Shown here: in pieces, positions 4,580 through 56,937 of the stretch | Layout of the letters: each line of letters opens with the position of its first letter | Numbering within the stretch: the stretch's first letter is position 1 | Assembly: GCA_016783355.1 (NCBI GenBank) | Contig: JADHWR010000001.1 | Span: 6,072 to 70,071, forward strand | Origin: Candidatus Omnitrophota bacterium | GTDB taxonomy: Bacteria > Omnitrophota > Gorgyraeia > Gygaellales > JAHJCI01 | Reading direction: 5' to 3' | DNA: 64,000 bases | Program-made: the position numbers and the translations under genes | The notes under the pieces: generated by a model | Databases searched by the model: none | Told to the model about the DNA's origin: nothing | The model's input: the letters and a program-made list of their open reading frames with translations, nothing else

Positions 4580-7500
4580 CTAAGTTACCTTTTCCATCTG
4601 CGCCTCTCGATGTGCAATAAAGCCGGTTCCTGCAGGAATTAAATGTCCAACAATCACATTTTCCTTCAATCCATATAAAACATCCCGTGCACCACGAGAA
4701 GCAGCATCGGTCAAAACCCGTGTTGTCTCCTGGAAGCTTGCTGCAGAAATAAAGCTATCTGTGCTCAATGATGCCCTGGTAATACCTTGCAACTGTGGTG
4801 TGGCTGAAGCAGGAGTGCCGCCCTTTTTCATCACACGCTCATTCTCGGTTTTAAATCTCAATTTATCCACTAATTCTCCAGGTAAAAATTCTGTATCTCC
4901 AGAGTCTTCTATACGCACTTTCTTCAGAATCTGTCGAATAATCAATTCAACGTGCTTATCACTAATCTGCACCCCTTGTAAACGATAGACTTCCTGAATC
5001 TCATTCAAAAGATACTCTGCAAGTCTTTTGTCTCCACAAATACGCAAGATTTCCTGAAGCACAACTGGTCCATCTGTAAGCTGGTCGCCGGCGCTGACGC
5101 GGTCCCCTTTATAAACGTTGGGGTGCTTACCATGGGGCATAATATACTCACGCTCCATGCCTGTCGGTGAACGGACAATAATTATTCGTTCGCCTTTCTT
5201 GCCTTCTCCAAATTCTACAAATCCATCAATCTCACTAATTATTGCCGGATTCTTTGGTCGGCGTATCTCAAATAATTCGGCAACGCGCGGCAGACCTCCT
5301 GTAATATCATGGGTTTTGGCAATGATGCGTGGGGTCTTCGCTAAACAGGCTCCTGCATTAATCTGCTCGGTATCCTTAACTAAAACATGGGCGCCTACGG
5401 GGAGCGGATAAAGACTGAGCACATCTTCTTTCTCATCTAAAATAACAATCTGAGGATGATATTCTTGTTTATGCTCCATCACTACTCGCTCAGTAACCTT
5501 GGTTACAGGATTAAACTCATCCTCAATACTAACTCCTGGAATTAAATCCTCAAATCTAACCCGGCCAGCTACTTCTGTCAAAATCGGAGAGTTATAAGGA
5601 TCCCAATGGACAAAAGCCATTCCCTTCTCAGTCAAAGTCTTATCAGCAAAAGCAACCAGCCCTCCATAGGGTACGGTATAACGTTCAAGTTCCCGGCCTT
5701 CCTGATCATTAATACTAATTACGCCATTACGATTAAGCACAAGAAATTCTTTGCCCACCCTTACTATTTTTAAGTTATGGTAGGTTAATATGCCTTTGTT
5801 TCTTGATTTTATCGAAGAGCGCTCAATCACACGAGAAGCTGTTCCGCCAATATGAAATGTGCGCATAGTAAGTTGTGTGCCGGGTTCGCCGATACTCTGA
5901 GCAGCAATTATTCCTACTGCCTCGCCTAATTCAACCTGCTTTCCCCGGGCAAGGTCCCGGCCATAACAGGTGGCGCAAATCCCCCTTTCTGCCTCGCAGA
6001 TAAGAACACTGCGTATCCTTATCTTCTCAATACCTAAACGCTCAATAATATCTGCCTTCTCTTCAGTAATCTCTTTGCCTGCCTCAACAATAACCTCATC
6101 AGTAATAATATCAACAATGTTATCGAGGGCAGTCCTTCCCACGATACGCTCGCGAAGAGGTATAACCACCTCATCTCCTTCAATAAGTGCGCTAACTGTA
6201 ATTCCATTAAGTGTACCGCAATCCTTCCTGGTTACAATTATATCCTGAGCAACATCTACCAATCGGCGAGTAAGATATCCTGCATCAGCTGTCTTTAGGG
6301 CTGTATCAGCGAGTCCTTTTCTTGCGCCATGTGTGGAGATAAAATATTCAAGAACGGTTAAACCCTCACGAAAATTTGCTGTAATAGGAGTTTCGATAAT
6401 CTCGCCTGATGGTTTTGCCATCAATCCACGCATTCCGCAAAGCTGCCTCACCTGCAGGCGCGAACCTCTTGCACCAGAATCAGCCATCATAAAGATTGGG
6501 TTAAAGGGTGTCATTTGCGAAAAGAGATAGTCAGTAACCCTATCTGTAGCATGTGTCCAGATATCAACAACACGATTAGATTTTTCTCTCTCTGTAATTA
6601 TGCCGTCTTTATAAAGCGTATCTACTTTGTCAACCTCGTTCTGTGCCTTCTTTATAACCTCTGCTTTTTGTGAGGGAATATGCAAATCCCCAATGGCAAT
6701 CGTGATACCCCCTAAGGTGGCAAATTCAAAGCCTTGTTCTTTTATTTCATCTAACAACTGAATTGTTCGTGCGTGACCAAAGCGTTTGTAGCATTCATCG
6801 ATTATATCGGCAACCAAGAATCTATTTAATTCCCTATTTACAAATCCAAAACCCTCCGGCAGCACTTGATTGAAGATGATTCTTCCCACTGTTGTTGTAA
6901 TTAGCCCTGTTGAGTCTTTAGCCTTTCTCTCATCCAGATCATATACCTTATTGACTTTCGTCTTTATCAATTCATGTAGGTCAATTATCTTATCGTTGTA
7001 CGCAGAGAGTGCCGCCGCAGGCGTGCTAAAGATTAAATCCTTTATCTTGCCGGCAGAGCCTTGCTTGGTAAAATAATTGCAACCCAGAATGATATCCTGT
7101 GTAGGCGATGTAATCGGCCGGCCATTGGCAGGAGAAAACATATTATTAATCGAAAGCATTAAAAGCTTTGCCTCCATCTGTGATTCCAACGACAGGGGGA
7201 CATGCACAGCCATCTGGTCACCATCAAAATCAGCATTAAAAGCGGCACATACCAAGGGATGGATCTTGATTGCCTTGCCCTCAATAAGTCTTGGTTGAAA
7301 TGCCTGCATACTTAAACGATGCAAGGTTGGTGCGCGATTCAAAAGCACGGGATGGTCACTTACAACTTCCTCGAGAATATCCCAAACCTCAACCTTTCCC
7401 CGCTCAACCATTCGGCGTGCCCCCTTAATTGTATGAACAAAGCCTTTCTGGCATAACCTCTTAATAATAAATGGCTCAAATAACTCAACCGCCATCTGCT

Positions 7501-10500
7501 TGGGAAGACCGCACTCTTGCATTTTCAGTTTTGGCTCAACAACAATTACCGAACGACCAGAGTAATCTACACGTTTACCTAAAAGATTCTGCCTGAAACG
7601 ACCCTGCTTTCCTTTAAGCATATCCGCAAGGGATTTTAGGGGTCGATTATTCGCCGTCAAGACTGCGCGGCCATGTCTTCCGTTATCAAAAAGCGCATCC
7701 ACTGCCTCTTGAAGCATTCTTTTTTCATTGCGAATAATAATATCCGGAGAATTTAACTCAATCAGTTTTTTTAGACGGTTGTTGCGATTAATCACCTGAC
7801 GATATAAATCATTCAAATCAGAAGTAGCAAATCTACCGCCATCTAAAGGAACCAGAGGCCTTAGGTCTGGCGGTATAACAGGAAGAACCTCCAAAACCAT
7901 CCATTCAGGCTTGTTGCCTGACTTTTTATAATCCTCGACAAACTTAAGATTTTTTAATAACTTTCGACGAGAAAGATTATCTTTAGACTGAGCGAGGGTT
8001 TTTTTCATTCTGGCAATCAGCTCATCTAAATCTGCTTCCTTCAATAAATCCTGAATTGCCCCTGCTCCAATTTTAGAGACAAAACCTTTATGTTTTTGTC
8101 GTGCTTGTGTATTTTCCTCTTCTGGAAGAAGTTGGCCCCTTTTATACGGCGAATCGCCTGGCTCGCTCACAACGTATGCCTCATAATAAATTATCTTTTC
8201 CAACTCACGCAGCCCCAAACCCAATATGGCCGAAAGCCTGCCGGAGACAACCTTAAAAAACCAGACATGTGTTACGGGTGCGGCTAATTCTATCTGTCCC
8301 ATGCGCTGACGGCGCACCATCGAATGCGCCACGGTTACGCCGCAACGGTCACAGGTAATTCCCTTAAACTTTATACCCTTATATTTGCCGCAGTGACACT
8401 CCCAGTCCTTCGCTGGCCCAAAAATCCTTTCGCAAAAGAGTCCATCTTTTTCCGGCTTAAGCGTACGATAATTAATTGTTTCTGCCTTTCTCACCTCGCC
8501 GCTTGACCAGCTGCGAATAACCTGTGGCGAGGCGATCTTTATACCTAAACTTTCAAATTGATTTGGGTTCTCCTCCCTTAGCTCCTGCTTTTCTATACGA
8601 ATATCAAGACATAAAGCTTGTAATTCTTTCATCAATACATGAAATGACTCGGGAATTCCGGGAAAAATCCTTTGTTCTCCTTTGACAATTGCCTCGTAAA
8701 TTTTTGTCCGGCCGCTAACATCGTCGCTTTTCACGGTAAGCATCTCTTGTAAAATAAAGGCAGCGCCATAGGCCTCTAAAGCCCAAACCTCCATCTCTCC
8801 TAAGCGCTGACCCCCAAACTGTGCCTTTCCTCCTAAAGGCTGCTGAGTAACTAAAGAATAGGGGCCTATAGAGCGGGCATGAATCTTCTCCTCAACAAGA
8901 TGAATCAACTTCATCATATAAATATATCCCACAGAGATATTTTGGGCAAAGGGCTCGCCTGTATAGCCGTCAAAGAGTGTAATTTTACTATCCTCAGGTA
9001 GCCGTGCTTCTTTAAGCATTTGCCTTATTTCTTCCTCGCTTGCTCCATCAAATACAGGAGAGGCAACTTTTATACCCAGACTATGCGCTGCCCAACCAAG
9101 ATGAGTCTCTAAAATCTGGCCGACATTCATGCGCGAAGGAACGCCTAAAGGATTTAAAACAATCTCGACTGGTTCCCCCGATGGCAAAAAGGGCATATCT
9201 TCTTCTGGTAAAATTCTTGCAACTATCCCCTTATTGCCATGACGGCCGGATAACTTATCTCCCTCTTGAAGCCTGTGCTTTGTAGCAATATAGACGATAA
9301 CCTGCTTAAGAACACCGCTCGGTAATTCATCGCCCCGACGCACTGCTTCAATCTCCTGCTTCATCTGAATATCCAATGCCTTGATCTGTTCTACATAAGG
9401 CTGGTTTATCTGGTTTGTTTCAGGATACGTACTTAAATCTAAGTCTGTTAATTCCTCTCTATCTACTTTTAAAACGTCGCACAGCCGCCTCATTCTTTCT
9501 TTATTAAGGAATTCCCTCTCTTCCTTATAATATTGTTTTATCTCCTTAATTCTTTTCTGCTGGCGCAACTTCTCTTCTTTAGACTTCCTCCCTCGCTCTC
9601 GACGACTAAATTCATCAATATGCACGACGATACCTTCGATACCGGGCGGAACAACTAACGAGGTATCGCGCACATCTTCAGCTTTTTTACCAAATATTGC
9701 GCGCAAGAGTCTCTCTTCCGCAGAAAGCTCTGATTCAGTGGTCGGTGTAACCTTGCCAACAAGAATATCCCCTGGCTCAGCCCAGGCGCCAATGCGCACA
9801 ATACCATTTTCGCCAAGACTAAGCAATGCCTCTTCGCTAACATTAGGAATATCCCGCGTAATCTCCTCGTTGCCTAAGCGCGTCTCTGTGGCTTCGATTT
9901 CCAACTTCTCGATATGAATAGAAGTAAAGGCATCTTCCTTGACTATCTTTTCAGAAATCAAGATTGCATCTTCAAAATTGTATCCTCGCCAGGGCATAAA
10001 GGCCACCAATAGGTTTCTGCCCAAAGCAAGTTCTCCATCTTGGGTTGCTATCCCATCGGCAATGATCTGACCTTCTTCTACAAAATCCCCTAACAAAACC
10101 AGCGGTCTTTGATTTATGCAAGTATCGGCATTGGTGCGCAGGAATTTCTTCAATCGATAAGTCTTTTTTCCAATGATGATTGTGGAGGCATCAACAAAGG
10201 TTACCTTGCCGGCCTCTTCGGCAATCACAACTGCACCAGAATCCTCTGCTATCTTCCTTTCCATCATTGTTCCTACAAGAGGTGCCTGCGGATTAAGCAG
10301 TGGCACTGCTTGACGCTGCATATTGGCTCCCATCAATGCGCGATTGGCATCATCGTGCTCTAAAAAAGGAATTAAGGAAGCGGATATCGAAATCAATTGC
10401 TTACAAGACACATCCATAAACTCCACCTTTTTGGCCGCAAGCTTGGGAAAATCAGCTTTAAAACGACAAGATACATCCTTCTCTAAAAGATGACCCCCCT

Positions 10501-11980
10501 TATCCAAGGCAGCATTAGCCTGCGCAATCACCTTTTGCTCATCCAGATCAGCAGTTAGGTATTCAATCTGCTTGGTTGCTTTTGCGTCTTTTACTTTGCG
10601 ATAAGGTGTCTCTAATAAACCGAGGGGGTTAATCCGGGCATATGTAGTCAAGGAAGTAATCAAGCCGATGTTTGGACCCTCGGGGGTTTCTATGGGACAG
10701 AGACGGCCATAATGTGAAGAATGTATATCTCTTACCTCAAAACTGGCGCGCTCGCGCGAGAGGCCACCCGGACCCAAAGCACTCAGCCGGCGTTTATGGG
10801 TTAACTCCGCTAATGGATTTACCTGATCCATAAACTGCGAGAGTTGACCGCGTGTAAAAAAATCATGGATTTGATTGGAAAAAATTTTGAAATTTATGAG
10901 ATGGTAAATGGTTAAGTCTTCTGTCTCGCCCATCAATGTCAATCTTTCTCGAATATTACGTTCAATTCGCGCAAGCCCAATGCGCACCTGATTCTGAGCT
11001 AATTCTGCTACAGTACGTACCCGCCGATTACCCAAATGGTCGATATCATCAATCTTTCCTTTTCCCTCTTTTAAACCGATAAGATAGTTAATAACCTTAA
11101 TTACTGTTTCGTAATCAAGAACTCTTTTATCCAGAGGGGTATCCATTCCTAATTTGCGGTTGAGGATAAATCTGCCGCAGCGACTGAGGTCATACCGGCG
11201 CACATCAAAAAATAAGCGGTAAAATAACTCGGCTGCTGCCTCGGGCGTAACCGGCTCACCCGGCCGCATCTTACGGAAAAAGTCTAATAGAGCTTCTTCT
11301 TTACTCTTTGTGTAATCCCTTTGCAGTGTATTGTTAATTACTGTATTATCTTTTCCAAAAAAACTTTGAATTTCTTCATCAGAGCTTAAACCTAATATAC
11401 GCAGGATCTGTGTGACGGGAAATGTCCGTCGACGATCAATAACTGCCAATATGGCTTCTGAAATATCATATTTAAATTCCAACCATGTTCCCCGATAAGG
11501 AATAATCCTTCCATAAAAAATGCGCTTTCCTGTTATATGCGTTTCCTCTTCAAAAGAAACACCGGGAGAACGATGAAGTTGAAAGATGACAACACGCTCA
11601 TCGCCATTAATAATAAAAGAGGCAGTAGGGGTCATCAAAGGAACCTCACCAAAAAACACATCCTGTTCTAATGTCCTGCTGGCAGAGATAAATCTAAATC
11701 TTACCCATAGTGGTGCAGCATAAGTCATTCCTCTTGTTTTACATTCCTCAATATCATATTTTGGATTACCCAATACATAATTGATAAACTCAAGCCGTAT
11801 GTGCCGGCTCGGTGTTTCAATAGGAAAGAAATTAAGAAACTCTTCCTGTAATCCTGAGCATCGCCTCTCTGAAAAAGGAACATCTTTTTGCAAAAAATCC
11901 TTATAGGCCTTGAGCTGATGCCTCAGAAGATTGGGTACTGAATATACTTCCTTTAGTTTTGCAAAACTCTTTCTCTTCAA
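4580..11980 (-). CDS. rpoBC: fused DNA-directed RNA polymerase beta-beta' subunit (RpoB-RpoC in one 2466-aa ORF)
   Basis: The N-terminal ~1130 aa carry RpoB motifs (GRHGNKG, the [10 protein letters not shown] region, C-terminal [15 protein letters not shown]). The ORF continues without a stop into the RpoC N-terminus ([36 protein letters not shown], zinc motif [21 protein letters not shown]). The junction is near 8545-8600. Confidence 0.9.
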
Positions 11981-12397: not shown

Positions 12398-12492
12398 AAT
12401 GAGTCCGCCAAAGTTCGTTGGCGGACGAATTAATCCCGCTGAGTGTGCCAAAATTATAAAATAGAATTTTGGCACATATTACGAAGCGGGAT
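12398..12492 (-). promoter_or_regulatory. Two-hairpin leader element, copy 1 (rplJ-rplL spacer, ends just before the rplL SD)
   Basis: The minus-strand RNA reads AUCCCGCUUCGUAAUAUGUGCCAAAAUUCUAUUUUAUAAUUUUGGCACACUCAGCGGGAUUAAUUCGUCCGCCAACGAACUUUGGCGGACUCAUU, followed by AAAGGGGG-N7-AUG. The architecture matches 56938-57031 and 62985-63085. Confidence 0.7.
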
Positions 12493-12496
12493 AAGT

Positions 12497-26267: not shown

Positions 26268-26913
26268 TTAAAACATCCCAAATCATCTTAACCTGTTTTT
26301 TTGTCTCAGATTTCGTCCCACTATTATCAATAACAAAATCAGCTAAATTTAGCTTCTTTTTTAATGGCATCTGCAAATTTATGCGCTTTTTAATTTCCGA
26401 AAGGCAAAATCCCTTTTTTTTAAGGCGCAATTTTTGAATGTCTGACCTTGCCCTTACGGCAATTATCTTATCCACGATTCTCGCCAGTCCTGCTTCGATT
26501 AATAAGGGTGCATCAATTATAATAAACTTAAAATTTCGGGCCTGCTGAATCTGTATTTTAATTTCCTTAATTATTCCTGGATGCAGAATTTCGTTGAGCT
26601 TCTTTAGGGAATGCTTATTTCTGAAAGCACTCTTAGCTAACCTTTTTCGATTAATCTGTTGATTCCTGGAAAGTATCCTTTCCCCAAATGCCGCAAGAAC
26701 CCGCCTGTAAGCCCCGTTCGAAGTAAGGCGCCCAAGGCGACTGCCCCGCCAAATTCCGTGGCGGGGACTTCTAACGGGGTAAGCCTTTTTCTTGGGCTCG
26801 ATTAACTGATGCGCAATCCTATCTGCATCAATAATCTGAGCGCCTAATTGTTTAAAATAGTGCGCGCACGTCGTCTTCCCTGTGCCAAAACTGCCGGTAA
26901 TACCAACAATCAT
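26227..26913 (-). CDS. coaE: dephospho-CoA kinase, carrying a 24-codon element insertion
   Basis: [15 protein letters not shown] has the P-loop at the likely start (26913, an ATGA overlap with the glgA stop). The [11 protein letters not shown] and LHP-type motifs are present. Confidence 0.88.
26712..26779. mobile_element. 68-bp TIR element in frame inside coaE, flanked by taag/taag
   Basis: The sequence reads taag|ccccgttcgaagt aaggcgcccaaggcgactg ccccgccaaattccgtggcgggg acttctaacgggg|taag. It encodes [23 protein letters not shown]. Confidence 0.85.
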
Positions 26914-28295
26914 TTTAAAAGGTGGTGGTAAAGCCCAATATAATTCCGGGCGGCAGTGGTCCAAGAAAAATTACAACCCATACCTCGCTTCATTAAAGAA
27001 AGCCGCCTGTTTTTATCTTTAAAAACTAAAAGCATCTCTTTGATCTTTGCCACGAGGGCCGATGGCGAATACTGATCAAAAATAAAACCATTCTTTTTAT
27101 CAATTGTATCAGTAAGGCCGCCTGTCTTAAAAACCAATGGAATTGTACCATATTTCAGGCTAATCATCTGCCCCAAGCCGCAGGGTTCGTATTTGGAAGG
27201 CATCAGGAATATGTCGCAGCCAGCATATATCTTATGAGCTAATACGTTGTCGAACTTAAGAAAGGTGCGTAACTTTTTAGGAAACTTTCTGGCTAATCTT
27301 TCTAAAATTCGGTGATAATTCAGCTCTCCTGTTCCCAGAATAACCAATTGAAGCGGAAGTGAACATATCTCCTCCATTGCCTCACTTAAGATATCAAAGC
27401 CCTTCTGCTGAGTGAGTCGAGAGACAATACCCAAAAGAGGAATATCGGACCTTGAAGGCAGCTTTGATAATTTGCATAGGGCCTCCTTATTTTTAACTTT
27501 GCCTTCAATATTGTCTTTGTCATAATTCTTGAGAATAAATTTATCGGTCTTTGGATTCCAAAGCTGATAATCTAAACCATTCAATATACCAAATAGATTA
27601 TCTCGCCGCCTGATCAAGACCCCTTCCAAGCCACAACCAAACTCCTTCGTTTGTATTTCTTTGGCATAAGTAGGACTTACTGTATTTATAGCGTCAGAAA
27701 AAACAATCCCGGCCTTTAATAGATTGACCTTACCGTAAAACTCCAATGCCTCCATATTAAAAAGCGACCAATCTAAGCCTAATTTAGGAAATTCCTCTTT
27801 ATTAAATAGTCCCTGATAGGCAAGATTATGAATTGTCAATAGTGTCTTTATTCCTTTATAAAATTCATCACCTTGAGCGGTTGTTTTTAAATATACGGGA
27901 ACAAGCGAACTCTGCCAGTCATGACAATGAAGTATCTGAGGCCTGAATTCTATTTCTTTTAAAAGTTTTAATGCCTCTCGGCAAAAATAAGAGAATCGGT
28001 TGAGATTATCGGGAAAGTCACCTTCTTTTTCTCCGTAGAGTCCTGGGCGATTAAAAAACTCTTCTTTCTTAATAAAATAAACCTTAATCTTTTTTCCTAT
28101 GGTTGTTGTAGAAATTTTCGAATTTAAGTCCTCAATTTTAAATCCTGCTGCCTTTGTCTTTTTGTAAAAGGGCATAATCACGATAATCTCATGTTTTAAT
28201 CTCTCCAAAGGCAAAGGCAGAGCCCCGACTACATCAGCAAGACCGCCGGTCTTGGCAAAAGGCACAACCTCTGATGCAAACATTGCGATTCTCAC
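26910..28295 (-). CDS. glgA: glycogen/starch synthase (ADP-glucose type)
   Basis: 461 aa. MRIAMFASEVVPFAKTGGLADVVGALP is the canonical GlgA N-terminus (KTGGL). Confidence 0.93.
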   Translation of the reverse strand: MRIAMFASEVVPFAKTGGLADVVGALPLPLERLKHEIIVIMPFYKKTKAAGFKIEDLNSKISTTTIGKKIKVYFIKKEEFFNRPGLYGEKEGDFPDNLNRFSYFCREALKLLKEIEFRPQILHCHDWQSSLVPVYLKTTAQGDEFYKGIKTLLTIHNLAYQGLFNKEEFPKLGLDWSLFNMEALEFYGKVNLLKAGIVFSDAINTVSPTYAKEIQTKEFGCGLEGVLIRRRDNLFGILNGLDYQLWNPKTDKFILKNYDKDNIEGKVKNKEALCKLSKLPSRSDIPLLGIVSRLTQQKGFDILSEAMEEICSLPLQLVILGTGELNYHRILERLARKFPKKLRTFLKFDNVLAHKIYAGCDIFLMPSKYEPCGLGQMISLKYGTIPLVFKTGGLTDTIDKKNGFIFDQYSPSALVAKIKEMLLVFKDKNRRLSLMKRGMGCNFSWTTAARNYIGLYHHLLK

Positions 28296-30964
28296 TTAAT
28301 CTCCTCCATCTCTAACCAATTCTTACCCTTCTTTATTACTACCTTTATGGGAACAGAAAGGGCTAAGGCATTCTCCATCTCATAAGATATCATCTCAATT
28401 GCCCTCTGCAATTGCCCGTTCGGTATCTCAAAAATAAGTTCATCGTGAATTTGCAGGAGGAGCTTCGCCGAAAGCGTTCTTTCCTCAATCTTCTGATATA
28501 TCTTAATCATCGCCATCTTAATTAAATCTGCTGCCGAGCCTTGGATGGATGAATTTACTGCCTGCCTTTCGGCAAATGCACGAACTGCGGCATTCTGATG
28601 ATTAATGTCAGGGAGATAGCGATGGCGACCTAAAATAGTTGTTACAAAATTGTCTTTTTTTGCCTTTTCAATCTGCCTGGCGATATAATCTTTTACTCTG
28701 GGATACCTTAAAAAATAGGCATCAATAAAGCGAGTTGCCTCCTCCCTTGAAATTCCTAATTCCCTTGCTAAACCAAAGGAAGATAGACCATAAATAATTC
28801 CAAAATTTATGCGCTTTGCTACTTCTCGCATCTGATCATTGACAATAGAATCCTCTGTGCCATAAACTAAAGAGGCAGTGGCACGATGTATGTCTTTGCC
28901 TTGCGAAAAAGCATCAATCAGCACCTTCTCGCCTGATAAATGTGCCAGAACCCTTAATTCTACCTGAGAATAATCAAAAGAGACCAAAAAATTATCCTCG
29001 CAACTCGTGATGAAAGCCTTTCGTATCTTGCGCCCTAACTCTGTCTTAATCGGTAGATTTTGCAAATTAGGATTAGAGGAGCTCAGTCTTCCCGTCTGTG
29101 TTCCTGTTTGATTGAAGAATGTATGAATGCGCAGGGTTTTTTTATCTGCCAGTTCCATTAAGGCATCGATATAAGTAGATTTTATTTTACAAAGCATACG
29201 ATATTCCAATAAAATTTTTGGTAAGGGATGCTGGCTTGCTAAGACAGCAAGAACCTCCTCATCGGTAGAGGCGCCTGTCTTTTTCTTTTTTATCACCGGC
29301 AGTTTTAATTTCTCAAAAAGAACCTGACGTAGCTGTAAGGGTGAGTTGATATTAAACGGCCCACCAGCAAGATGATAAATTTTACTGACCAGGCCTTTGC
29401 GCTTTTCTTCAATTTCAATGCCCAAGGCTTTAAGAAACTCTAAATCAAGCTTTATACCCTCTAATTCCATCTGCGCTAAAACAGGAATCAAGCGAATCTC
29501 TAAGTCGCAAAAGATGCGAAAGCTATCTTTAAGCTTTAGTTCTTTCTCTAAAACCGACTTAAGTGTTCCAATAACAACACAAACCTCAAGTGGACTTATC
29601 TTTCCTGCCCCGTTCGAAGTCCCCGCCGTAGGCGGGGCAGTCGCCCCGGGCGTCTTACTTCGAACGGGGCCTGCATCCAAAATTCTCTTCAGATAATCCC
29701 AGCACAGGCTCTCAAGACTATAATCAGACCGGGACGGATTCAAAAGATAAGCAGCAATCATCGTATCAAAACCTAACCCTTCTAGGGCGATATTATGCCG
29801 GGCTAATCGCAAAAAGATATCTTTTAGATTGTGGCCGATTTTCTTAATCTTTGGGTCTCTAAGGACAGGTTCAATGCTCTTTAAGGAGCCTTTCTCTAAT
29901 TCTAAAAAAGAATCACTCTCTGGAAGATAAACTGTCAACCCCTCCTCATTCATATAGAGAATCAACTCACCTGCCTGCCTAAACTGATCAATCCCGGCAA
30001 CCTGCCTGTTGGCACTTCGACGGAGTTTATCCCGAGCGAAGTCGAGGGACTCAGTGCTAGCACTCCGACTTCGCTCAGTGCCAACCCTGAGCTTGTCGAA
30101 GGGTTGCTCAGGTAAATCTTTAAGAAATTTTTTAAATTCTAACTCACGAAAGATTTCATAAAGATTTCTATAGTCAGGCTTCTTTATCTTTAAACTTTGC
30201 GCATCAAATTCTATATCTAAATCTGTCCTTAATTGTGCAAGATAATGACATAGTTTTATTTGCTCAATCTTTTCTTTCAAGCGAGAACGAAGCTTTTGTT
30301 CTTTTATCTGATCCAAATTCAATAAGAGATTTTCCAGAGACTTAAATTTATCCAGGAGCTTGGTGGCGGTCTTTTCTCCTATGCCAGGAACACCCGGGAT
30401 ATTATCAGCTGTATCTCCGGCAAGAGCAATAAAGTCAGCAATTCTGCCGGGTAAAAATCCGTATTGGCGCTTAACCCCTGCCACATCATAAATTATCTTT
30501 TTGTCTTTATGAGGATGCAGAACAATAACTCCCTCATCCACTAATTGCAAGATATCCTTATCAGCGCTGACAATCATTATTGTAAAATCCTTCTCTTTTG
30601 CCTTCCTGGTTAATGTCGCAATAACATCGTCTGCTTCAAAGCCCTCCTTCTCAAATATATTAATTCCAAAGGCCTTGATTATCTTTTTAATGTAAGGCAG
30701 TTGAGTCACTAAATCCGCAGGCATAGGAGGACGTTGTATCTTGTAACGCGCAAATTCTTTTTGGCGAAATGTGTGCCTTGAGACATCAAAACATACACCC
30801 ATATACTGCGGATTTATCTCTTTTAAAACCTTATTCAGAAAATTCACAAAGCCATAAATAGCATTGGTACAAAGACCGTAAGAGGTCGCAAGCCCCCTTA
30901 TGGCATAATAGGCGCGGTAACAGATGCCGTTGGCATCAATAAGTACTACTTGGGCTTTATCCAT
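28292..30964 (-). CDS. polA: DNA polymerase I, carrying two different in-frame repeat insertions
   Basis: 890 aa. Has a 5' nuclease domain (GIPGVPGIGEKTA), pol motif A (SFDYSQVELRVLAH), motif B (RR.AK..NFGIIYG) and motif C (QIHDELIFE). Confidence 0.95.
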   Translation of the reverse strand: MDKAQVVLIDANGICYRAYYAIRGLATSYGLCTNAIYGFVNFLNKVLKEINPQYMGVCFDVSRHTFRQKEFARYKIQRPPMPADLVTQLPYIKKIIKAFGINIFEKEGFEADDVIATLTRKAKEKDFTIMIVSADKDILQLVDEGVIVLHPHKDKKIIYDVAGVKRQYGFLPGRIADFIALAGDTADNIPGVPGIGEKTATKLLDKFKSLENLLLNLDQIKEQKLRSRLKEKIEQIKLCHYLAQLRTDLDIEFDAQSLKIKKPDYRNLYEIFRELEFKKFLKDLPEQPFDKLRVGTERSRSASTESLDFARDKLRRSANRQVAGIDQFRQAGELILYMNEEGLTVYLPESDSFLELEKGSLKSIEPVLRDPKIKKIGHNLKDIFLRLARHNIALEGLGFDTMIAAYLLNPSRSDYSLESLCWDYLKRILDAGPVRSKTPGATAPPTAGTSNGAGKISPLEVCVVIGTLKSVLEKELKLKDSFRIFCDLEIRLIPVLAQMELEGIKLDLEFLKALGIEIEEKRKGLVSKIYHLAGGPFNINSPLQLRQVLFEKLKLPVIKKKKTGASTDEEVLAVLASQHPLPKILLEYRMLCKIKSTYIDALMELADKKTLRIHTFFNQTGTQTGRLSSSNPNLQNLPIKTELGRKIRKAFITSCEDNFLVSFDYSQVELRVLAHLSGEKVLIDAFSQGKDIHRATASLVYGTEDSIVNDQMREVAKRINFGIIYGLSSFGLARELGISREEATRFIDAYFLRYPRVKDYIARQIEKAKKDNFVTTILGRHRYLPDINHQNAAVRAFAERQAVNSSIQGSAADLIKMAMIKIYQKIEERTLSAKLLLQIHDELIFEIPNGQLQRAIEMISYEMENALALSVPIKVVIKKGKNWLEMEEIK
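29608..29669. mobile_element. 62-bp TIR element in frame inside polA, flanked by cctg/cctg
   Basis: The sequence reads cctg|ccccgttcgaagt ccccgccgtaggcgggg cagtcgccccgggcgtctt acttcgaacgggg|cctg. It encodes PVRSKTPGATAPPTAGTSNGA. Confidence 0.85.
30011..30108. repeat. Palindromic 'FDKLRV'-type repeat inserted in frame in polA
   Basis: It contains gagcgaagtcg...agtgctagcact...cgacttcgctc and accctgagcttgtcgaaggg. The same words occur in the tandem arrays at 31007-31200. It encodes PFDKLRVGTERSRSASTESLDFARDKLRRS. Confidence 0.75.
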
Positions 30965-31006
30965 TTAGAAAATCAAGCATAAAATAAAAATAGGAATGGG
31001 TTGACA

Positions 31007-31071
31007 CCTCGACTTCGTCCCTCGACTTCGTCCCTCGACTTCGTCCCTCGACTTCGTCCCTCGACTTCGCT
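31007..31071. repeat. 13-bp tandem repeat x5 (cctcgacttcgtc)
   Basis: Four perfect copies plus one variant, read directly from the sequence. Confidence 0.9.
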
Positions 31072-31200
31072 CGGGACGACCCTGAGCTTGTCGAAGGGTC
31101 GCTCGGGACGACCCTGAGCTTGTCGAAGGGTCGCTCGGGACGACCCTGAGCTTGTTGTCGAAGGGTCGCTCAGTGTCAATCCTGAGCTTGTCGAACGGAT
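31072..31200. repeat. 32-bp tandem repeat x3 plus a partial copy (cgggacgaccctgagcttgtcgaagggtcgct); each unit has a GACCCT...AGGGTC hairpin
   Basis: Units lie at 31072, 31104 and 31136 (the third has a 3-bp tgt insertion). A partial copy follows as cctgagcttgtcgaacgg. Confidence 0.9.
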
Positions 31201-31207
31201 TGAATTA

Positions 31208-32152
31208 TTAGTTTTTAGGGGTTAATTCCGTGGCTATCTTTTCTAAAGTCTGCTTTGCAGTTACAATATCATCCTGCTCATAGAATCTGATCGCATCTTG
31301 AAACTTGGCCTGCATAATAGCGATGTGTTCTTGTTTTTGTTTTTCTTTAATCTCTTTATTTATTTTATCTATTAAGGTCAAAAATGAGTCTCTGTCTGAC
31401 GGGTCCAAAGAAATGGCTAACACCAGTGCATTTTTTGCTTCCTCTATTTTGTGCTCTTCATATAAATCATCAGCCAGTTCCTTAAGTTTTTGAATCTCTT
31501 TTAACTCTGTTAATCTGACTGCCTTTTTATGAATGGCGAGCTCACGCACTAAACTAAGCGTCTCTTCCTCTATCAACTCCTGCTGAAGAGAAGGCTGAGT
31601 CTCTGCGATGGCCTGGCGTCTGCGTTTCGCCCACTCCACCCAAGACTCACCGGGAATTCCCAATTCTATACGTTTTTTCCAATAATCAAAAGCCTTCTTT
31701 AGTTCTCTTTTTTGCTCATAAAGCATAGCTAAATTTGAATATAAATTATGATACTGGGGATTTAATTTTAGTCCAACTAAATAAATCTTCTCTGCCCTAT
31801 CAAGTAAACCCTTGGCCTCAAACATAATTCCTAAATCATTGTAAGCAATAACATAAGCAGGGTCTAACTCAATTGCCTTCTGATAACAGACTGTGGCACT
31901 ATCTAAATCACCGCGCTGCTGAAACTGCAAACCTTGACTTCGAAGAAGACGTGCCTCTTTTTGAAAAGTAGTTTGTTTCTGCGCAAAAAGTGAGGTTGGG
32001 AAACAGAATAAGTTAATTGTTATAAATAAATTAATTGCTACAAAAGAGATAATTCCCTTTGTAAACCCCGTTCGAAATTCCTCCAATCTTTGCTTAAGGC
32101 TTAATGATACATAAGTAGCCGAGGCTTTTGAATCTATCTTAAATCTATGCAT
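31208..32152 (-). CDS. TPR-repeat protein with signal-peptide-like N-terminus; current start codon lies inside a TIR element
   Basis: TPR-like repeats (A...Y.KAIELDP..., NLG..FE..G....A...Y...L.L.P). The hydrophobic segment IISFVAINLFITINLFCFPTSLFA follows. Confidence 0.75.
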   Translation of the reverse strand: MHRFKIDSKASATYVSLSLKQRLEEFRTGFTKGIISFVAINLFITINLFCFPTSLFAQKQTTFQKEARLLRSQGLQFQQRGDLDSATVCYQKAIELDPAYVIAYNDLGIMFEAKGLLDRAEKIYLVGLKLNPQYHNLYSNLAMLYEQKRELKKAFDYWKKRIELGIPGESWVEWAKRRRQAIAETQPSLQQELIEEETLSLVRELAIHKKAVRLTELKEIQKLKELADDLYEEHKIEEAKNALVLAISLDPSDRDSFLTLIDKINKEIKEKQKQEHIAIMQAKFQDAIRFYEQDDIVTAKQTLEKIATELTPKN

Positions 32153-32171
32153 ATCTAAATTTCGAACGGGG
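32066..32171. mobile_element. 106-bp TIR element (no ORF of its own) inserted in the 5' end of the TPR gene, flanked by taaa/taaa
   Basis: The sequence reads taaa|ccccgttcgaaat...80 bp...atttcgaacgggg|taaa. It supplies the ATG (32152) and the first 29 codons of the present TPR ORF. Confidence 0.85.
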
Positions 32172-32433
32172 TAAACCCCGTTCGAAATAGGAAACGCTTT
32201 AATCTATCGTTCAAATAGCGTTTACCCTTTCCAGACTTCAGGTGTTTTTCTCTACTCATTGCATCATATTTATTTAGACAGGCTTCATAATAAATAAGCT
32301 TAAAGGGGCCTCTATTCTTAGTAGAAGACACCTTTCCTGAATTATGCTCACTAAAGCGTTTCCGTAAATCATTCGTTAAGCCTGTATACCATTTTTTATC
32401 TTTCTGGCTTTGAATTACATAAACATAATGCAT
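32155..32433 (-). CDS. small GIY-YIG nuclease family protein (YhbQ/UPF0213-like)
   Basis: 92 aa. MHYVYVIQS....WYTGLTNDL.KR..EHN.GK matches the GIY...YIG-type motifs (YVY / WYTG), a conserved Arg and E..HN. The C-terminal FRTGFTPFEI is encoded by the TIR junction. Confidence 0.85.
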   Translation of the reverse strand: MHYVYVIQSQKDKKWYTGLTNDLRKRFSEHNSGKVSSTKNRGPFKLIYYEACLNKYDAMSREKHLKSGKGKRYLNDRLKRFLFRTGFTPFEI

Positions 32434-43287: not shown

Positions 43288-45378
43288 CTATAGTTTTCTT
43301 GCTATCTTCTCAATTTTATAGCCTTCCATTATATCGCCTATTTTATAATCAGAAAAATTACCTATGGATATGCCGCACTCATAACCTTCAGATACCTGAG
43401 AAACCTCATCTTTAAAACGCCGAAGATTGCTAATCTTTCCGCTAAAGATAGTAGTGTTGTCTCTGATTATATCTATATTGAGCGTGCGCAAGATCTTACC
43501 CTTAGTTATAGTACACCCCGCCACAACACCACTTCGCGAGAGATTAAAAACCTGCTTCACGCGTGCCTGTCCAAAAGATACCTTTTTTATCTTTGGGCTT
43601 AACAACCCTTCTAAAGCCGCCTTTATCTCCTCGACTAATTCATAAATTATATTGTATGTCCTTACCTCCACCTGCTCTTTTTTAATTAATTCCTTTGCTC
43701 GCTCTTCTATATTTATATGAAAACCCAAGATTAGCGCATCAGAGACAGACGCCAGCATTACATCTGAAGTGTTAATTAAGCCCACTCCTTTATGGGTTAT
43801 CTTAAATTTTACCTCTTTTGTCTCTAATTTTATTAGAGAATCCCGCACCGCCTCTAATGAGCCGAATGTGTCTGCTTTAATAATAATCTTCAGCTCTTTA
43901 AGAACACCGTTTTTTATTTCCTGATGTAAATCCTCCAGCGAAAACCGATGTGGTGAAATATTCCTTTTTTCCTTTGTCTCGCGCAGCGAGATAAGTGCTC
44001 TTGCCCCTTTCTCGTCCTTGACAACAAAAAATCTCTCTCCTGCCTCAGGCACGGATTCAAAACCTAAAATTCCCACAGGCTGACTGGCAGTAGCTTCCTC
44101 AACTCTCTGGCCACAGTCATTAAATATTGCCTTTACCTTTGCTAAGTTCTTCCCCGCAACAAGTAGATCATTAAGATGTAATTTTCCATTCTGCACCAAT
44201 AAAGTTGCCAGAGGACCCCTGTTTGGGTCCTGTCTTGCCTCAATAACAACACCCCTTGCTATCTGATTATAATCTGCTTTCAATTCTAACATTTCTGCCT
44301 CTAAAAGAATCATCTCTAATAATTCATCTATGCCCTGACCGGTTTTGGCAGAAACCTCTACCGTTACGGTCTTGCCTTGCCACTCCTCAGGAACTAAACC
44401 AATATCAGCAAGTTGCTTCTTTACCCTATCTACGTTAGCCTGAACTCGATCAACTTTATTTATGGCGACAATTATAGGAACCTCAGCATCTCGGGCATGG
44501 TTAATTGCCTCAATTGTCTGAGGCATAACACCATCATCAGCAGCAACCACTAAAACAACAATATCTGTAATCTGTGCGCCCCGTGCACGCATTGCCGTAA
44601 ATGCCTCATGACCGGGTGTATCCAAAAATGCAATCTTACCCTTATCTAAATTAACCTCATATGCACCGATGTGCTGGGTTATGCCTCCATGTTCAAAATC
44701 AACGACCTTTGTCTTTCTAATCATATCCAAAAGGGAGGTCTTACCATGGTCAACATGACCCATAAATGTTACTACGGGTGGACGAACATTTAAATCCTGA
44801 GGCTGGCTTGATACCTCATGTAAGGAAAGCAGGCGTTCTTCTAAAGAGGGAGCCTGCTTGACTTTAAAGCCAAAATTCTCACAAACCTGCTCTACTTCAT
44901 CTTTTCCTAAAGATTGGTTAATGTTGGCTAGGATTTTTAACTTTAAAAGTTCCTGCATTAGCTGCGAGAGTTTAATTTGAAGCTTAACCGCTAAATTCTT
45001 AACAGAAATAGGGAAATCTAATTCTAATACCTTAGCTTGTGGCGCCTCTTCAACCAAAATTGCTTGTAGCTGCTGGGGTTGAGGCTCTAAGGTCTTTGCT
45101 TGAATTTTAGACTTGCGGGAGACTCTTCTCTTTGGTTTAGGGGCTATTTCTTTCCTCTTGATTTGCTTTTTGCCTGGCTCTTTTCGTAGGACCGCAGGCT
45201 TTTTTGCTTTCCTTGCCCCGTTTGAAATCCCTCGCCTAACGGCGGGGGCAGCTACCTTTGGTGTCTTACTTCGAACGGGGTTTGGCTTTGTAGAGGAAGC
45301 CCTTAAGCGAGTCTTTGAAGCCTTTCTCACTTTAGTTTTTAATGCTTTTGGTTTCTTAGGTTTTTTTATCTTTTTCAT
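43288..45378 (-). CDS. infB: translation initiation factor IF-2, carrying a 23-codon element insertion in the basic N-terminal region
   Basis: 696 aa. Has the G domain [21 protein letters not shown] and NKVD. Confidence 0.94.
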   Translation of the reverse strand: MKKIKKPKKPKALKTKVRKASKTRLRASSTKPNPVRSKTPKVAAPAVRRGISNGARKAKKPAVLRKEPGKKQIKRKEIAPKPKRRVSRKSKIQAKTLEPQPQQLQAILVEEAPQAKVLELDFPISVKNLAVKLQIKLSQLMQELLKLKILANINQSLGKDEVEQVCENFGFKVKQAPSLEERLLSLHEVSSQPQDLNVRPPVVTFMGHVDHGKTSLLDMIRKTKVVDFEHGGITQHIGAYEVNLDKGKIAFLDTPGHEAFTAMRARGAQITDIVVLVVAADDGVMPQTIEAINHARDAEVPIIVAINKVDRVQANVDRVKKQLADIGLVPEEWQGKTVTVEVSAKTGQGIDELLEMILLEAEMLELKADYNQIARGVVIEARQDPNRGPLATLLVQNGKLHLNDLLVAGKNLAKVKAIFNDCGQRVEEATASQPVGILGFESVPEAGERFFVVKDEKGARALISLRETKEKRNISPHRFSLEDLHQEIKNGVLKELKIIIKADTFGSLEAVRDSLIKLETKEVKFKITHKGVGLINTSDVMLASVSDALILGFHINIEERAKELIKKEQVEVRTYNIIYELVEEIKAALEGLLSPKIKKVSFGQARVKQVFNLSRSGVVAGCTITKGKILRTLNIDIIRDNTTIFSGKISNLRRFKDEVSQVSEGYECGISIGNFSDYKIGDIMEGYKIEKIARKL
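45216..45280. mobile_element. 65-bp TIR element in frame inside infB (flanks cttg / tttg)
   Basis: The sequence reads cttg|ccccgtttgaaat ccctcgcctaacggcggggg cagctacctttggtgtctt acttcgaacgggg|tttg. It encodes PVRSKTPKVAAPAVRRGISNGA. Confidence 0.8.
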
Positions 45379-52669: not shown

Positions 52670-53422
52670 TTATTCCTTAATCCTTCGTCTTCGTCCTTCG
52701 CTTCGCTCAGGACTAATCTCTCCGAAGCGGCGATGCCTTTCTTGGTAATCCTTGATTGCCTCGCTCAAATCCTCTTTTTTAAAATCAGGCCAGTAAATTT
52801 TAGTAAAATAAAGCTCGGCGTAAGATGCCTGCCAGAGTAAAAAATTGCTCAACCGTAGCTCTGCGCCTGTGCGGATTAAAAGGTCAAGCTCAGGCAAGTT
52901 ACGAGTATAAAGGAATTGAGAAAAGACCCTCTCATTTAAGGTCTTTATCCAATCAGGGGATTTAGTTGCTAATTCAATAATCTGACGACAGGCATCAACA
53001 ATCTCTTGCCGGGCTCCATAATTTAATGCCAGAACCAGAGTCATCCCCGTGTTTTTTGCAGTGAGCTCTTGCGCTTTCTTAATCTTAAATAAAAGCCGCT
53101 CTGAGAGAGACACGCTTCGGCCAATAACGCGAAAACGCAGGTTATCTTTATTTAATTCCTTAATGTCATTATCTAAAAAATGAGAAAAAGCCCTCATTAA
53201 CATATCTACTTCTTTTTTTGGTCTTTGCCAATTCTCGCAGGAAAAGGCAAACAATGTCAGAGTCTCAATCCCTAACTGATTTGCTGCCCTGGTAATCTCC
53301 TTTATTCGCTTCATGCCTTTTCTGTGACCTGCACTGCGCATAAGCCTTCTCATCTTCGCCCAACGGCCATTACCATCCATTATTATAGCAACGTGTTTAG
53401 GAATGTTGTTTTTATCTAACAT
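52670..53422 (-). CDS. uppS: undecaprenyl diphosphate synthase
   Basis: Has HVAIIMDGNGRWA, LTLFAFS.ENW.RP and the DLLIRTG-like motif. The start is taken at the ATG (MLDKNN); the track start is a GTG five codons upstream. Confidence 0.93.
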   Translation of the reverse strand: MLDKNNIPKHVAIIMDGNGRWAKMRRLMRSAGHRKGMKRIKEITRAANQLGIETLTLFAFSCENWQRPKKEVDMLMRAFSHFLDNDIKELNKDNLRFRVIGRSVSLSERLLFKIKKAQELTAKNTGMTLVLALNYGARQEIVDACRQIIELATKSPDWIKTLNERVFSQFLYTRNLPELDLLIRTGAELRLSNFLLWQASYAELYFTKIYWPDFKKEDLSEAIKDYQERHRRFGEISPERSEGRRRRIKE

Positions 53423-55731: not shown

Positions 55732-55746
55732 ATCTCTGCCCTCCCG

Positions 55747-55800: not shown

Positions 55801-55826
55801 TGTTGTCAAATGTGGAGACCTGACCC

Positions 55827-56922: not shown

Positions 56923-56937
56923 CGCTCCTACCTCCTC

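What the first reader, a model, noticed from the sequence alone, without database searches (positions are those of the whole stretch)
30005..30112. Second, unrelated palindromic repeat inserted in frame in polA
About 100 bp of GC-rich palindromic sequence lies inside the polA ORF: ggcacttcgacggagtttatcccGAGCGAAGTCGagggactcAGTGCTAGCACTcCGACTTCGCTCagtgccaaccctgagcttgtcgaagggttgctcagg. It is read as EQPFDKLRVGTERSRSASTESLDFARDKLRRSANRQ. It contains an 11-bp inverted repeat around a perfect 12-bp palindrome and shares its words with the array at 31007-31200. polA therefore tolerates two different repeat families in frame (see 29608-29669).
Basis: seen in the sequence. Interest (0 to 1): 0.5.

Follow-up and report, generated by a model that had tools for sequence, protein, structure and literature searches.

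The report
Hairpin repeat cluster translated inside polA
A cluster of three small GC-rich hairpin repeats sits in frame in the flexible linker of DNA polymerase I of an uncultured Omnitrophota bacterium; this kind of selfish DNA inside a gene is already known, but this repeat family, found across many bacterial phyla, seems not to have been described.

Summary
Window 30005-30112 is a 59% GC palindromic block in a ~40% GC genome. It is read in frame as PolA residues 286-321.

It consists of three hairpin units of one design: a 4-7 bp stem around a loop GAGC-N3/4-TCGR. The same units build the tandem array 43 nt upstream of polA. A 49-nt stretch is 100% identical to an intergenic copy on another contig of the same population.

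The block lies in the variable linker between the 5'-nuclease and the exonuclease-like domain. It is absent from 18 Omnitrophota PolA homologues and from solved Pol I structures. An AlphaFold2 model gives pLDDT <50 at only three segments; two of them coincide with the two repeat inserts.

The same unit pair (A-B dimer) occurs in at least 120 metagenome contigs, and the B-unit 18-mer occurs in more than 20 phyla. Loops stay constant and stems covary. Elsewhere the elements lie in frame in PolX, GltX, a MiaB-like gene (A-B dimer) and MetH, HsdR (18-mer).

Best reading: a non-autonomous, REP-like selfish element tolerated in a disordered linker. REPs inside genes, including a polA, were reported in 2013, so the phenomenon is known. 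The family does not fit the defined GTAG/CGTC classes, Rfam or the searchable literature.

The parts
28292..30964 (-). polA (DNA polymerase I), an intact 890-aa ORF that hosts the repeat
   Evidence: ORF. Pfam domains. PDB hits to Taq Pol I at E=2e-173. The same protein is named DNA polymerase I of a Candidatus Omnitrophica MAG (MBL7080987.1). Motif residues are invariant in alignment A1.
30005..30112 (-). Repeat-derived in-frame block of 36 codons, PolA residues 286-321. It lies in the linker between the 5'-nuclease and the 3'-5'-exonuclease-like domain.
   Evidence: Translation. Absent from homologues. Taq alignment ends at residue 283. AF2 pLDDT is below 50 for residues 287-322.
30030..30049 (+). 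Hairpin unit H3 (A type): TCCC-GAGCGAAGTCGA-GGGA
   Evidence: Unit scan. Covariance model R1 scores 32.3 bits at 30026-30053 on the minus strand. It is an inverted copy of array junction 31051-31076 (pair I1).
30050..30073 (.). 24-nt (8-codon) stretch present in polA but absent from the L121/L122 copy. It is bracketed by 8-bp direct repeats CTCAGTGC (30050-57 and 30074-81) and contains most of the 12-bp palindrome AGTGCTAGCACT (30053-64).
   Evidence: Alignment A3. Sequence. Peptide P0121 lacks 'RSRSASTE'.
30060..30081 (-). Hairpin unit H2 (A type, inverted): GCACT-cCGACTTCGCTC-AGTGC
   Evidence: Unit scan. R1 scores 32.7 bits at 30057-30084. The same stem GCACT/AGTGC occurs in metagenome locus L231.
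30082..30106 (+). Hairpin unit H1 (B type): CAACCCT-GAGCTTGTCGA-AGGGTTG. It contains the 18-mer core found across phyla. Together with H2 it forms a canonical A-B dimer.
   Evidence: An alternative 7-bp stem CCTGAGC/GCTCAGG (30086-92 and 30106-12) appears in the folds.
30009..30084 (.). Outer 8-bp inverted repeat TTGGCACT / AGTGCCAA (30009-16 and 30077-84) that encloses H3 and H2
   Evidence: Coordinates. Outer stem in the folds.
31007..31200 (+). Intergenic tandem array of the same units, 43 nt upstream of the polA start codon. It has 13-nt CCTCGACTTCGTC x4.8 (truncated A units), one full A unit (31057-31076) and about four 32-nt B units.
   Evidence: Tandem Repeats Finder.. The copy number differs by one 32-nt unit between assemblies, and one assembly's contig breaks inside the array.
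52690..52716 (+). Diverged single A-like unit GTCCT-TCGCTTCGCTC-AGGAC. It encodes the C-terminal tail (...SPERSEGRRRRIKE) of UppS.
   Evidence: R1 scores 23.4 bits, E=5e-4. Sequence and ORF. The Prenyltransf domain ends at residue 239 of 255.
29608..29669 (-). Second, unrelated palindromic repeat in polA (residues 431-454, AGPVRSKTPGATAPPTAGTSNGAG). Listed for context only.
   Evidence: AF2 pLDDT is below 50 for residues 431-454.

Best explanation
The block is a cluster of three copies of a small, non-autonomous, REP-like hairpin repeat.

Each unit has a short stem of 4-7 bp that covaries between copies. The stem surrounds a nearly invariant 11-12 nt loop, either GAGCGAAGTCGA (type A) or GAGCTTGTCGA (type B). 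Units alternate in orientation, as in REP clusters.

Inferred history: the cluster landed in, or expanded within, the DNA that encodes the unstructured linker between the 5'-nuclease and the exonuclease-like domain of PolA. It persisted for three reasons:
- Its length is a multiple of three.
- The element is free of stop codons in this frame. Five of six frames of the conserved cores are open.
- A disordered, length-variable linker can absorb about 36 hydrophilic, Arg/Ser-rich residues without harming either domain.

On this reading the insert is a neutral or near-neutral passenger that is translated into a surface loop, and PolA stays functional.

Shown:
- the repeat identity of the block;
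- its unit architecture;
- its position in the linker;
- an otherwise intact polA;
- stems that covary around constant loops across metagenomes;
- recurrent in-frame copies in other genes and organisms.

Inferred:
- that it arrived by insertion;
- that it is translated;
- that it is selectively tolerated and not useful;
- that spread depends on a factor acting in trans that recognises the conserved loop on a single-stranded hairpin. A RAYT-like HUH transposase is the leading guess, but nothing here identifies it.
For: Identity as a repeat:
- The block contains three units of the generic design, and the only other three in 64 kb are in the array upstream of polA.
- It shares 21-nt exact words with that array in both orientations.
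- 49 nt are 100% identical to an intergenic copy in L121/L122. Those contigs come from the same two samples at matching coverage.

Position and integrity of PolA:
- Taq Pol I aligns up to residue 283, and Klenow-type chains resume after the block.
- 18 homologues have 18-33 variable residues in the linker where this protein has 48.
- The AF2 model has mean pLDDT 82 and drops below 50 only at residues 74-78, 287-322 and 431-454.
- Catalytic-motif residues are invariant in alignment A1.
- The protein is identical in three independent assemblies.

Family behaviour:
- The A-B dimer pattern, 26 specified bases, hits at least 120 metagenome contigs of 34-70% GC.
- For hairpin A the mean contiguous stem is 4.26 bp against 1.14 +/- 0.13 for shuffled partners.
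- The covariation score is 0.582 against 0.259 +/- 0.015 in shuffles, with 0 of 500 reaching it, and at most 0.26 when partners are slid.
- For hairpin B the stem is 4.39 bp against 2.98 +/- 0.09.
- The 18-mer core occurs in at least 120 genome stretches from more than 20 phyla.

In-frame copies in real genes elsewhere:
- A-B dimer in a PolX thumb domain, GltX, a MiaB-like gene, a Glucosamine_iso gene and a PMT_2 gene.
- B-unit 18-mer core in M17 peptidase, MetH, HsdR and a TonB-dependent receptor.
- Loci L271, L275 and L177 use the same reading frame (NPFDKLRVDAERSRS) as PolA (QPFDKLRVGTERSRS).

Precedent:
- REPs inside genes are 'many within replication and repair genes', including DNA polymerase I. 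R. palustris RPE_4821 PolA carries a REP dimer at residues 338-367 (PMC3733652).
- Rickettsia palindromic elements are a known case of in-frame insertion (PMC10969869).
Against: - No empty site or close relative is available. The next PolA is 54-57% identical, so the insertion event, its age and its exact borders are inferred.
- No target-site duplication or clear terminal inverted repeats are visible (sequence).
- No transposase or other gene is enriched next to about 240 loci that carry the elements.
- Only four loci of the family were seen in about 82 kb of this population, so high copy number in this genome is not shown.
- Translation of the block and activity of the protein are untested.
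- The remaining native linker of about 12 residues is shorter than in any homologue, so part of the original linker may have been replaced and not simply interrupted.
Confidence: 0.8

Rival explanations
1. Exapted element. The hairpins act in the polA mRNA, or the Arg/Ser-rich loop acts in the protein. RNA roles could be a ribosome pause at the domain boundary, a processing site or a stability determinant. A protein role could be an extra nucleic-acid contact or a linker-length adjustment. On this reading the block is maintained by selection.
For: - The sense RNA folds to -54 kcal/mol (z = -4.5) exactly at a domain boundary.
- A second array of the same units lies in the polA 5' region.
- Loops are conserved across phyla and stems covary, so the hairpin itself is under some constraint.
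- In low-GC contigs the A-to-B strand is mostly antisense to the surrounding genes, 26 against 10, as it is in polA.
Against: - The same units sit in many unrelated genes and in intergenic DNA. This argues against a polA-specific role.
- Homologues function without the block.
- The peptide is predicted with very low confidence.
- The constraint on the hairpin is explained equally well by selection for mobility.
Confidence: 0.1
2. Assembly artefact. A short-read assembler joined reads through a repeat and created a chimeric polA.
For: The neighbouring array is clearly assembly-sensitive. It differs by one 32-nt unit between assemblies, and one contig ends inside it.
Against: - Three independent assemblies give the identical 890-aa protein.
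- The reading frame is preserved.
- Both flanks are collinear with PolA homologues.
- A 108-nt block is shorter than typical read pairs.
Confidence: 0.03
3. Local origin. The block was copied from the array 1 kb upstream by template switching or gene conversion, with no arrival as an interspersed element.
For: The two loci are 0.9 kb apart. They share a 26-nt inverted segment and a segment of about 41 nt that is direct (pair I1 and family D1).
Against: - The polA copy is more similar to the distant L121 copy (49 of 49 nt) than to the array.
- Its A-B dimer has the same layout as at least 120 unrelated metagenome copies.
Confidence: 0.07

Closest known systems
Intragenic REPs (GTAG- and CGTC-tagged palindromic repeats; Di Nocera, De Gregorio and Rocco 2013, PMC3733652)
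   Same: - Short GC-rich palindromic units occur singly, as dimers in opposite orientation, or in clusters.
- They are mostly intergenic, but a fraction lies in frame inside known genes and encodes 20-80 extra residues.
- Replication and repair genes are over-represented. The list explicitly includes DNA polymerase I (R. palustris RPE_4821, residues 338-367 of 1012).
- CGTC REPs have no dedicated transposase.
   Different: - The units here have 4-7 bp stems and an invariant loop of 11-12 nt. CGTC REPs have 8-9 bp stems that begin with AT, loops of 4-5 nt, a CGTC tag and a CCA tail.
- A tag is only occasionally present here: TGTC before the last array unit and CGTC next to the array's A unit.
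- The host phylum (Omnitrophota) and the sequence differ from all families listed in that paper, as far as its text and supplement show.
Rickettsia palindromic elements (RPE; Ogata et al. 2000, as summarised in PMC10969869)
   Same: A palindromic element of about 100-150 bp is inserted in frame in unrelated housekeeping genes, is translated as an extra peptide, and is judged compatible with the protein fold.
   Different: - RPEs are Rickettsia-specific families.
- This block is a cluster of 20-25 nt units that also occur individually and as dimers in many phyla.
- No sequence comparison with RPEs could be made here.
BIMEs / REP clusters of enterobacteria mobilised by RAYT transposases (established knowledge)
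   Same: Units alternate in orientation (H3 +, H2 -, H1 +). Intergenic arrays lie between genes transcribed in the same direction. Elements are non-autonomous.
   Different: No GTAG tag is present. No RAYT gene was seen in the window or next to about 240 loci. Here the conserved part is the loop, not the stem.
MITEs
   Same: Small, non-coding, multi-copy, able to create in-frame fusions.
   Different: No terminal inverted repeats at the borders and no target-site duplication are evident.

Membership tests
REP-like repeats (general sense: short interspersed palindromic units) | Short (20-40 bp) imperfect palindromes able to form stem-loops | tested here: met
   Three units of 20-25 nt lie in the block, and more lie in the array. 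Folds have z of -4.5 to -5.3.
REP-like repeats (general sense: short interspersed palindromic units) | Multiple dispersed copies in the same genome | tested here: inconclusive
   Four loci were found in about 82 kb of this population: polA, the array, the uppS tail and L121. The rest of the genome could not be fetched.
REP-like repeats (general sense: short interspersed palindromic units) | Units organised as dimers or clusters in alternating orientation | tested here: met
   H3(+), H2(-), H1(+) in polA. A-B dimers occur in at least 120 metagenome contigs.
CGTC-tagged REP superfamily (Di Nocera 2013) | Unpaired CGTC (or TGTC/CCTC) tag at one end | tested here: inconclusive
   TGTC precedes the last array unit (agTGTCaatcc). 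CGTC adjoins the array's A unit on the minus strand. The polA units have TGCC or no tag.
CGTC-tagged REP superfamily (Di Nocera 2013) | Stem of 8-9 bp beginning with AT, loop of 4-5 nt, CCA tail | tested here: not met
   Stems are 4-7 bp, loops are 11-12 nt, and there is no CCA tail.
GTAG REP / REPIN-RAYT systems | GTAG tag and an associated RAYT (Y1 HUH transposase) gene | tested here: not met
   The units carry no GTAG. No recurrent neighbouring gene family was found in about 240 loci. The whole genome was not available, so a distant RAYT is not excluded.
Rickettsia palindromic elements | In-frame insertion of a palindromic element into housekeeping genes | tested here: met
   Also seen in other genes and organisms.
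Rickettsia palindromic elements | Sequence membership in one of the RPE families | not tested
The host is Omnitrophota, not Rickettsia.
MITE | Terminal inverted repeats and flanking target-site duplication | tested here: not met
   The flanks 29990-30004 and 30113-30127 share no direct repeat. The 8-bp inverted repeat (30009-16 and 30077-84) is internal.
Described structured RNA families (Rfam 15) | Match to a curated covariance model | tested here: not met
   There is no hit at gathering score in the window or in 20 loci carrying A-B dimers. Only chance-level hits appear at E up to 10.

The most novel reading that the evidence does not exclude
The A and B units belong to an undescribed superfamily of hairpin elements spread across bacteria.

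- Loops of 11-12 nt of the form GAGC-N3/4-TCGA are identical from Patescibacteria to Proteobacteria and also occur in viral contigs.
- The 4-7 bp stems covary freely.
- The A and B loops are near-complements of each other, so a dimer can switch between two small hairpins and one long one.

This pattern would imply a conserved factor acting in trans, such as a nuclease, a transposase or an RNA-binding protein, that reads the loop. That factor would link REP-like DNA across phyla and would explain why the elements enter genes so often in frame.
Probability: 0.3. Interest if true: 0.7.

Novelty: new member of a known kind. Interest (0 to 1): 0.4.

Why it matters
- It adds an uncultured phylum (Omnitrophota) and a new sequence family to the short list of palindromic selfish DNA that is translated inside essential genes. 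One polA here carries two unrelated families at once.
- It gives a natural map of positions in Pol I that tolerate insertions: the 5'-nuclease/exonuclease-like linker and a loop of the exonuclease-like domain.
- The family behind the insert has constant loops, covarying stems and copies in more than 20 phyla. If that pattern reflects a shared recognition factor, it offers a handle on how REP-like elements without a dedicated transposase spread, which is still an open question.
- Practically, these repeats create spurious small ORFs such as P0121. They also lengthen real proteins and break short-read assemblies, so annotators should mask them.

Tried and rejected
- Rfam at gathering and at permissive thresholds found nothing for the block, the array or 20 other loci.
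- Literature searches by DNA words and by repeat-derived peptides (PELVEG, LSLSKG, FDKLR...) gave no relevant paper. A search for Omnitrophica plus palindromic repeats gave only CRISPR-type hits.
- A protein search with the 41-aa peptide returned only one small ORF (P0121). That ORF was useful because it led to the second copy.
- A first metagenome scan with a 29-mer of the composite found nothing. A viral scan for the A-B dimer also found nothing.
- Idea: the 18-mer is the apex of a hairpin with long covarying stems. In the genome-scan set, stem extension beyond the 18-mer equals shuffled partners (1.28 against 1.28). Many of those copies are instead arms of longer inverted repeats; 61 of 134 have an inverted partner within 200 nt. 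Covariation was shown only for the short stems in the A-B dimer set.
- Idea: a link to the GIY-YIG nuclease gene 1 kb away (32155-32433). Only one other locus of 121 (L068) has such a gene, so this was rejected as a general association.
- All-against-all clustering of ORFs from all loci looked for a linked transposase. The large clusters are one group of related high-GC viral contigs or ordinary housekeeping families.
- G-T against A-C mismatch counts in the stems show no strand bias, so they do not decide between an RNA-level and a DNA-level structure.
- Promoter and terminator scans of the region are at chance level.
Full report
**What is there**

polA is the 890-aa ORF 28292-30964 on the minus strand. 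It has the usual Pol I domains and matches Taq Pol I at E=2e-173. The same protein is deposited as DNA polymerase I of a Candidatus Omnitrophica MAG, accession MBL7080987.1.

Bases 30005-30112 are 59% GC in a window of about 40% GC. They are read as EQPFDKLRVGTERSRSASTESLDFARDKLRRSANRQ, residues 286-321. The 11-bp inverted repeat at 30034-44 and 30066-76, the 12-bp palindrome at 30053-64 and the shared words with the array at 31007-31200 are all confirmed.

Chance does not explain the block:
- The fold z-scores are -5.3 for DNA and -4.5 for sense RNA.
- The 18-mer CCTGAGCTTGTCGAAGGG occurs 4 times against 0.04 expected.

**Anatomy**

The block is a trimer of hairpin units of one design: a short stem, a loop GAGC-N3/4-TCGR, and the complementary stem.
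- H3: TCCC-GAGCGAAGTCGA-GGGA, 30030-49, plus strand.
- H2: GCACT-cCGACTTCGCTC-AGTGC, 30060-81, inverted.
- H1: CAACCCT-GAGCTTGTCGA-AGGGTTG, 30082-106, plus strand.

A scan for this generic design finds six units in 64 kb. Three are here and three are in the array; shuffles give 0.08.

The 12-bp palindrome lies in a 24-nt stretch bracketed by 8-bp direct repeats CTCAGTGC. That stretch is missing from the other copy of the composite (alignment A3). It is therefore either a slippage duplication in polA or a deletion in the other copy.

The array lies 43 nt upstream of the polA start codon. It consists of 13-nt truncated A units (x4.8) and 32-nt B units (x3.9). Its length differs by exactly one 32-nt unit between two assemblies, and a third assembly breaks inside it.

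A covariance model of hairpin A recovers the three A units in the window and the L121 copy. It detects B units weakly on the opposite strand. It also finds a diverged unit that encodes the C-terminal tail of UppS at 52690-52716.

**A second copy elsewhere in the same population**

The small ORF P0121 led to contigs L121 and L122. They come from the same two ENA samples as polA, at the same coverage. They share several repeat families with the window.

Their intergenic element is 100% identical to polA over 49 nt (window 30009-30057). It is followed by a decayed B hairpin whose stem shows a compensatory change: AATCC/GGATT against AACCC/GGGTT in polA. The polA block is therefore a member of an interspersed family and not a local oddity.

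**Position in the protein**

Taq Pol I aligns to residue 283 and resumes later. Klenow-type chains start after the block.

In an alignment with 18 Omnitrophota PolA homologues of about 845 aa and 54-57% identity, the block falls in the variable linker after the 5'-nuclease domain. The homologues have 18-33 residues there and this protein has 48. The catalytic-motif residues are invariant.

An AlphaFold2 model has mean pLDDT 82 and pTM 0.72. Its low-confidence segments are residues 74-78, 287-322 and 431-454. The last two coincide with the two repeat-derived inserts.

The second insert (29608-29669) belongs to a different family and shares at most 7-8 nt with this one. The caveat is that, without a close relative, 'insertion' is inferred from absence in distant homologues.

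**The family outside this genome**

Roughly 17 would be expected for a random 18-mer; this figure is my own estimate from the size of the collection. The hits come from more than 20 phyla. These include Patescibacteria, Bacteroidota, Chloroflexota, Acidobacteriota, NC10, Planctomycetota, Actinomycetota, Cyanobacteria and all proteobacterial classes. It often forms one arm of a longer inverted repeat; 61 of 134 copies have an inverted partner within 200 nt.

The A-B dimer pattern CGACTTCGCTC-N5-14-CCTGAGCTTGTCGAA hits at least 120 metagenome contigs of 34-70% GC. The A unit occurs in 35 viral contig stretches.

In the dimer set the loops were fixed by the search but the stems were not, and the stems covary:
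- Hairpin A has a mean contiguous stem of 4.26 bp against 1.14 +/- 0.13 for shuffled partners.
- On alignment A4 the covariation score is 0.582 against 0.259 +/- 0.015. None of 500 shuffles reaches it, and slid partners reach at most 0.26. All five inner pairs change on both sides.
- Hairpin B has a stem of 4.39 bp against 2.98 +/- 0.09.

The A and B loops are near-complements. A dimer can therefore form either two small hairpins or one long one.

**In-frame copies in other genes**

These hosts were confirmed with Pfam.
- A-B dimer in frame: a PolX thumb domain (L265), GltX (L226), a MiaB-like enzyme (L179), a Glucosamine_iso family protein (L268) and a PMT_2 glycosyltransferase (L271).
- B-unit 18-mer core in frame: M17 aminopeptidase (L019), MetH (L058), HsdR (L082) and a TonB-dependent receptor (L021).

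Several of these use the same frame as PolA (NPFDKLRVDAERSRS against QPFDKLRVGTERSRS). Five of the six frames of the conserved cores have no stop codon (and reading of the sequence).

In low-GC contigs the A-to-B strand is antisense to the surrounding genes in 26 of 36 cases, as it is in polA. This is suggestive only.

**Mechanism**

The best-supported reading is a non-autonomous, REP-like selfish element that is tolerated in a disordered linker.

The following points are shown:
- the family identity of the block;
- its hairpin architecture, with covariation;
- its location in the linker;
- an otherwise intact gene;
- recurrent in-frame occurrence elsewhere.

The following points are inferred:
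- the insertion event itself;
- translation of the block;
- neutrality;
- mobilisation in trans by a factor that reads the conserved loop on a single-stranded hairpin.

No linked gene was found. A GIY-YIG link was rejected, and neighbour clustering gave nothing. There is no target duplication and there are no terminal inverted repeats.

**Comparison with what is known**

Di Nocera et al. [quoted passage not shown] They include DNA polymerase I: R. palustris RPE_4821 carries a CGTC-3 dimer at residues 338-367 of 1012. Rickettsia palindromic elements are the classic in-frame case (PMC10969869). The phenomenon is therefore known.

Membership in the defined CGTC or GTAG superfamilies fails on stem length, loop length and tail. 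There is no Rfam family. No paper in the searchable library contains the sequences.

I file the finding as a new member of a known kind. The family-level architecture, with a constant long loop, a short covarying stem and spread across phyla, may be undescribed.

**Verdict**

The mechanism is most likely passive tolerance of selfish hairpin DNA, with confidence about 0.8. Interest is moderate at 0.4. The more novel reading, a superfamily of loop-recognised hairpins across bacteria, is not excluded; I give it a probability of about 0.3.

Noticed in passing
window 26720-26786, 29608-29669, 45217-45281; L121 1769-1809 and 3198-3239: The other palindromic family (CCCCGTTCGAAGT...ACTTCGAACGGGG) is in frame in every copy seen in the window: CoaE ('[24 protein letters not shown]'), the N-terminal region of IF-2 ('NPVRSKTPKVAAPAVRRGISNGA') and PolA residues 431-454, always in the 'PVRS...SNG' frame. 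Two more copies lie inside an AddB-like PDDEXK gene of L121 (frame not checked). PolA homologues P0073, P0089 and P0071 carry similar 'NPVRS...SNG' inserts at other positions.
   Followed up: partly
window 12398-12493, 56932-57044, 62979-63112 (all minus strand); L121 15250-15379: A repeat of about 115 nt with two hairpins, one showing compensatory changes, followed by ATTGAGGAGG. It lies directly upstream of rplL, an OmpA-family gene and clpP, and in L121 upstream of a glutamine synthetase gene. There is no Rfam match. It looks like a shared 5'-UTR or promoter cassette of highly expressed genes.
   Followed up: partly
window 52690-52716: A diverged single hairpin unit (GTCCT-TCGCTTCGCTC-AGGAC) supplies the last ~12 codons of uppS (tail ...SPERSEGRRRRIKE after the Prenyltransf domain ends at residue 239). 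The uppS stop codon at 52670-52672 is immediately followed by the start codon of the next gene at 52668.
   Followed up: partly
window 30965-31207; L278 2790-3000; L279 1-189: The tandem array upstream of polA differs by exactly one 32-nt unit between two assemblies of the same population. A third assembly's contig ends inside it. The copy number is therefore either polymorphic or not reliably assembled.
   Followed up: yes
window 4580-11980 (minus strand): rpoB and rpoC are fused into one 2466-aa ORF. Rpb2 domains are followed by Rpb1 domains in a single frame.
   Followed up: partly
window 63384-63707 (minus strand): A group I intron (RF00028, 88 bits) lies next to a cluster of tRNA genes at 63117-63302. 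Its host gene was not examined.
   Followed up: no
window 32065-32188; L121 12244-12367: A further repeat of about 124 nt (92% identical between the two loci) spans the 3' end of a small GIY-YIG nuclease gene (32155-32433) and the 5' end of the TPR gene. Both proteins contain 'FRTGFT'.
   Followed up: no
L068 2222-2627 (Eremiobacterota MAG): A GIY-YIG-like ORF (2253-2582) is flanked by inverted copies of the 18-mer core: two on the plus strand at its start and two on the minus strand at its end. This resembles a small cassette bounded by the hairpins. It was the only such case among 121 loci.
   Followed up: partly
window 55747-55794: Two tandem copies of a GC-rich palindromic unit (CC(C)TGTACCATACGGTACAGGG...) lie at the 5' end of the DUF4912 ORF 55045-55809. 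The sequence is unrelated to the other families.
   Followed up: no
L123-L157 (IMG/VR contigs): About 17 related high-GC viral contigs carry the A unit at a conserved position, often as an inverted pair 'ccgttcgtgTCGAGCGAAGTCGAgacacg...tCCCTCGACTTCGCTCGGGAcgaacgg'.
   Followed up: no
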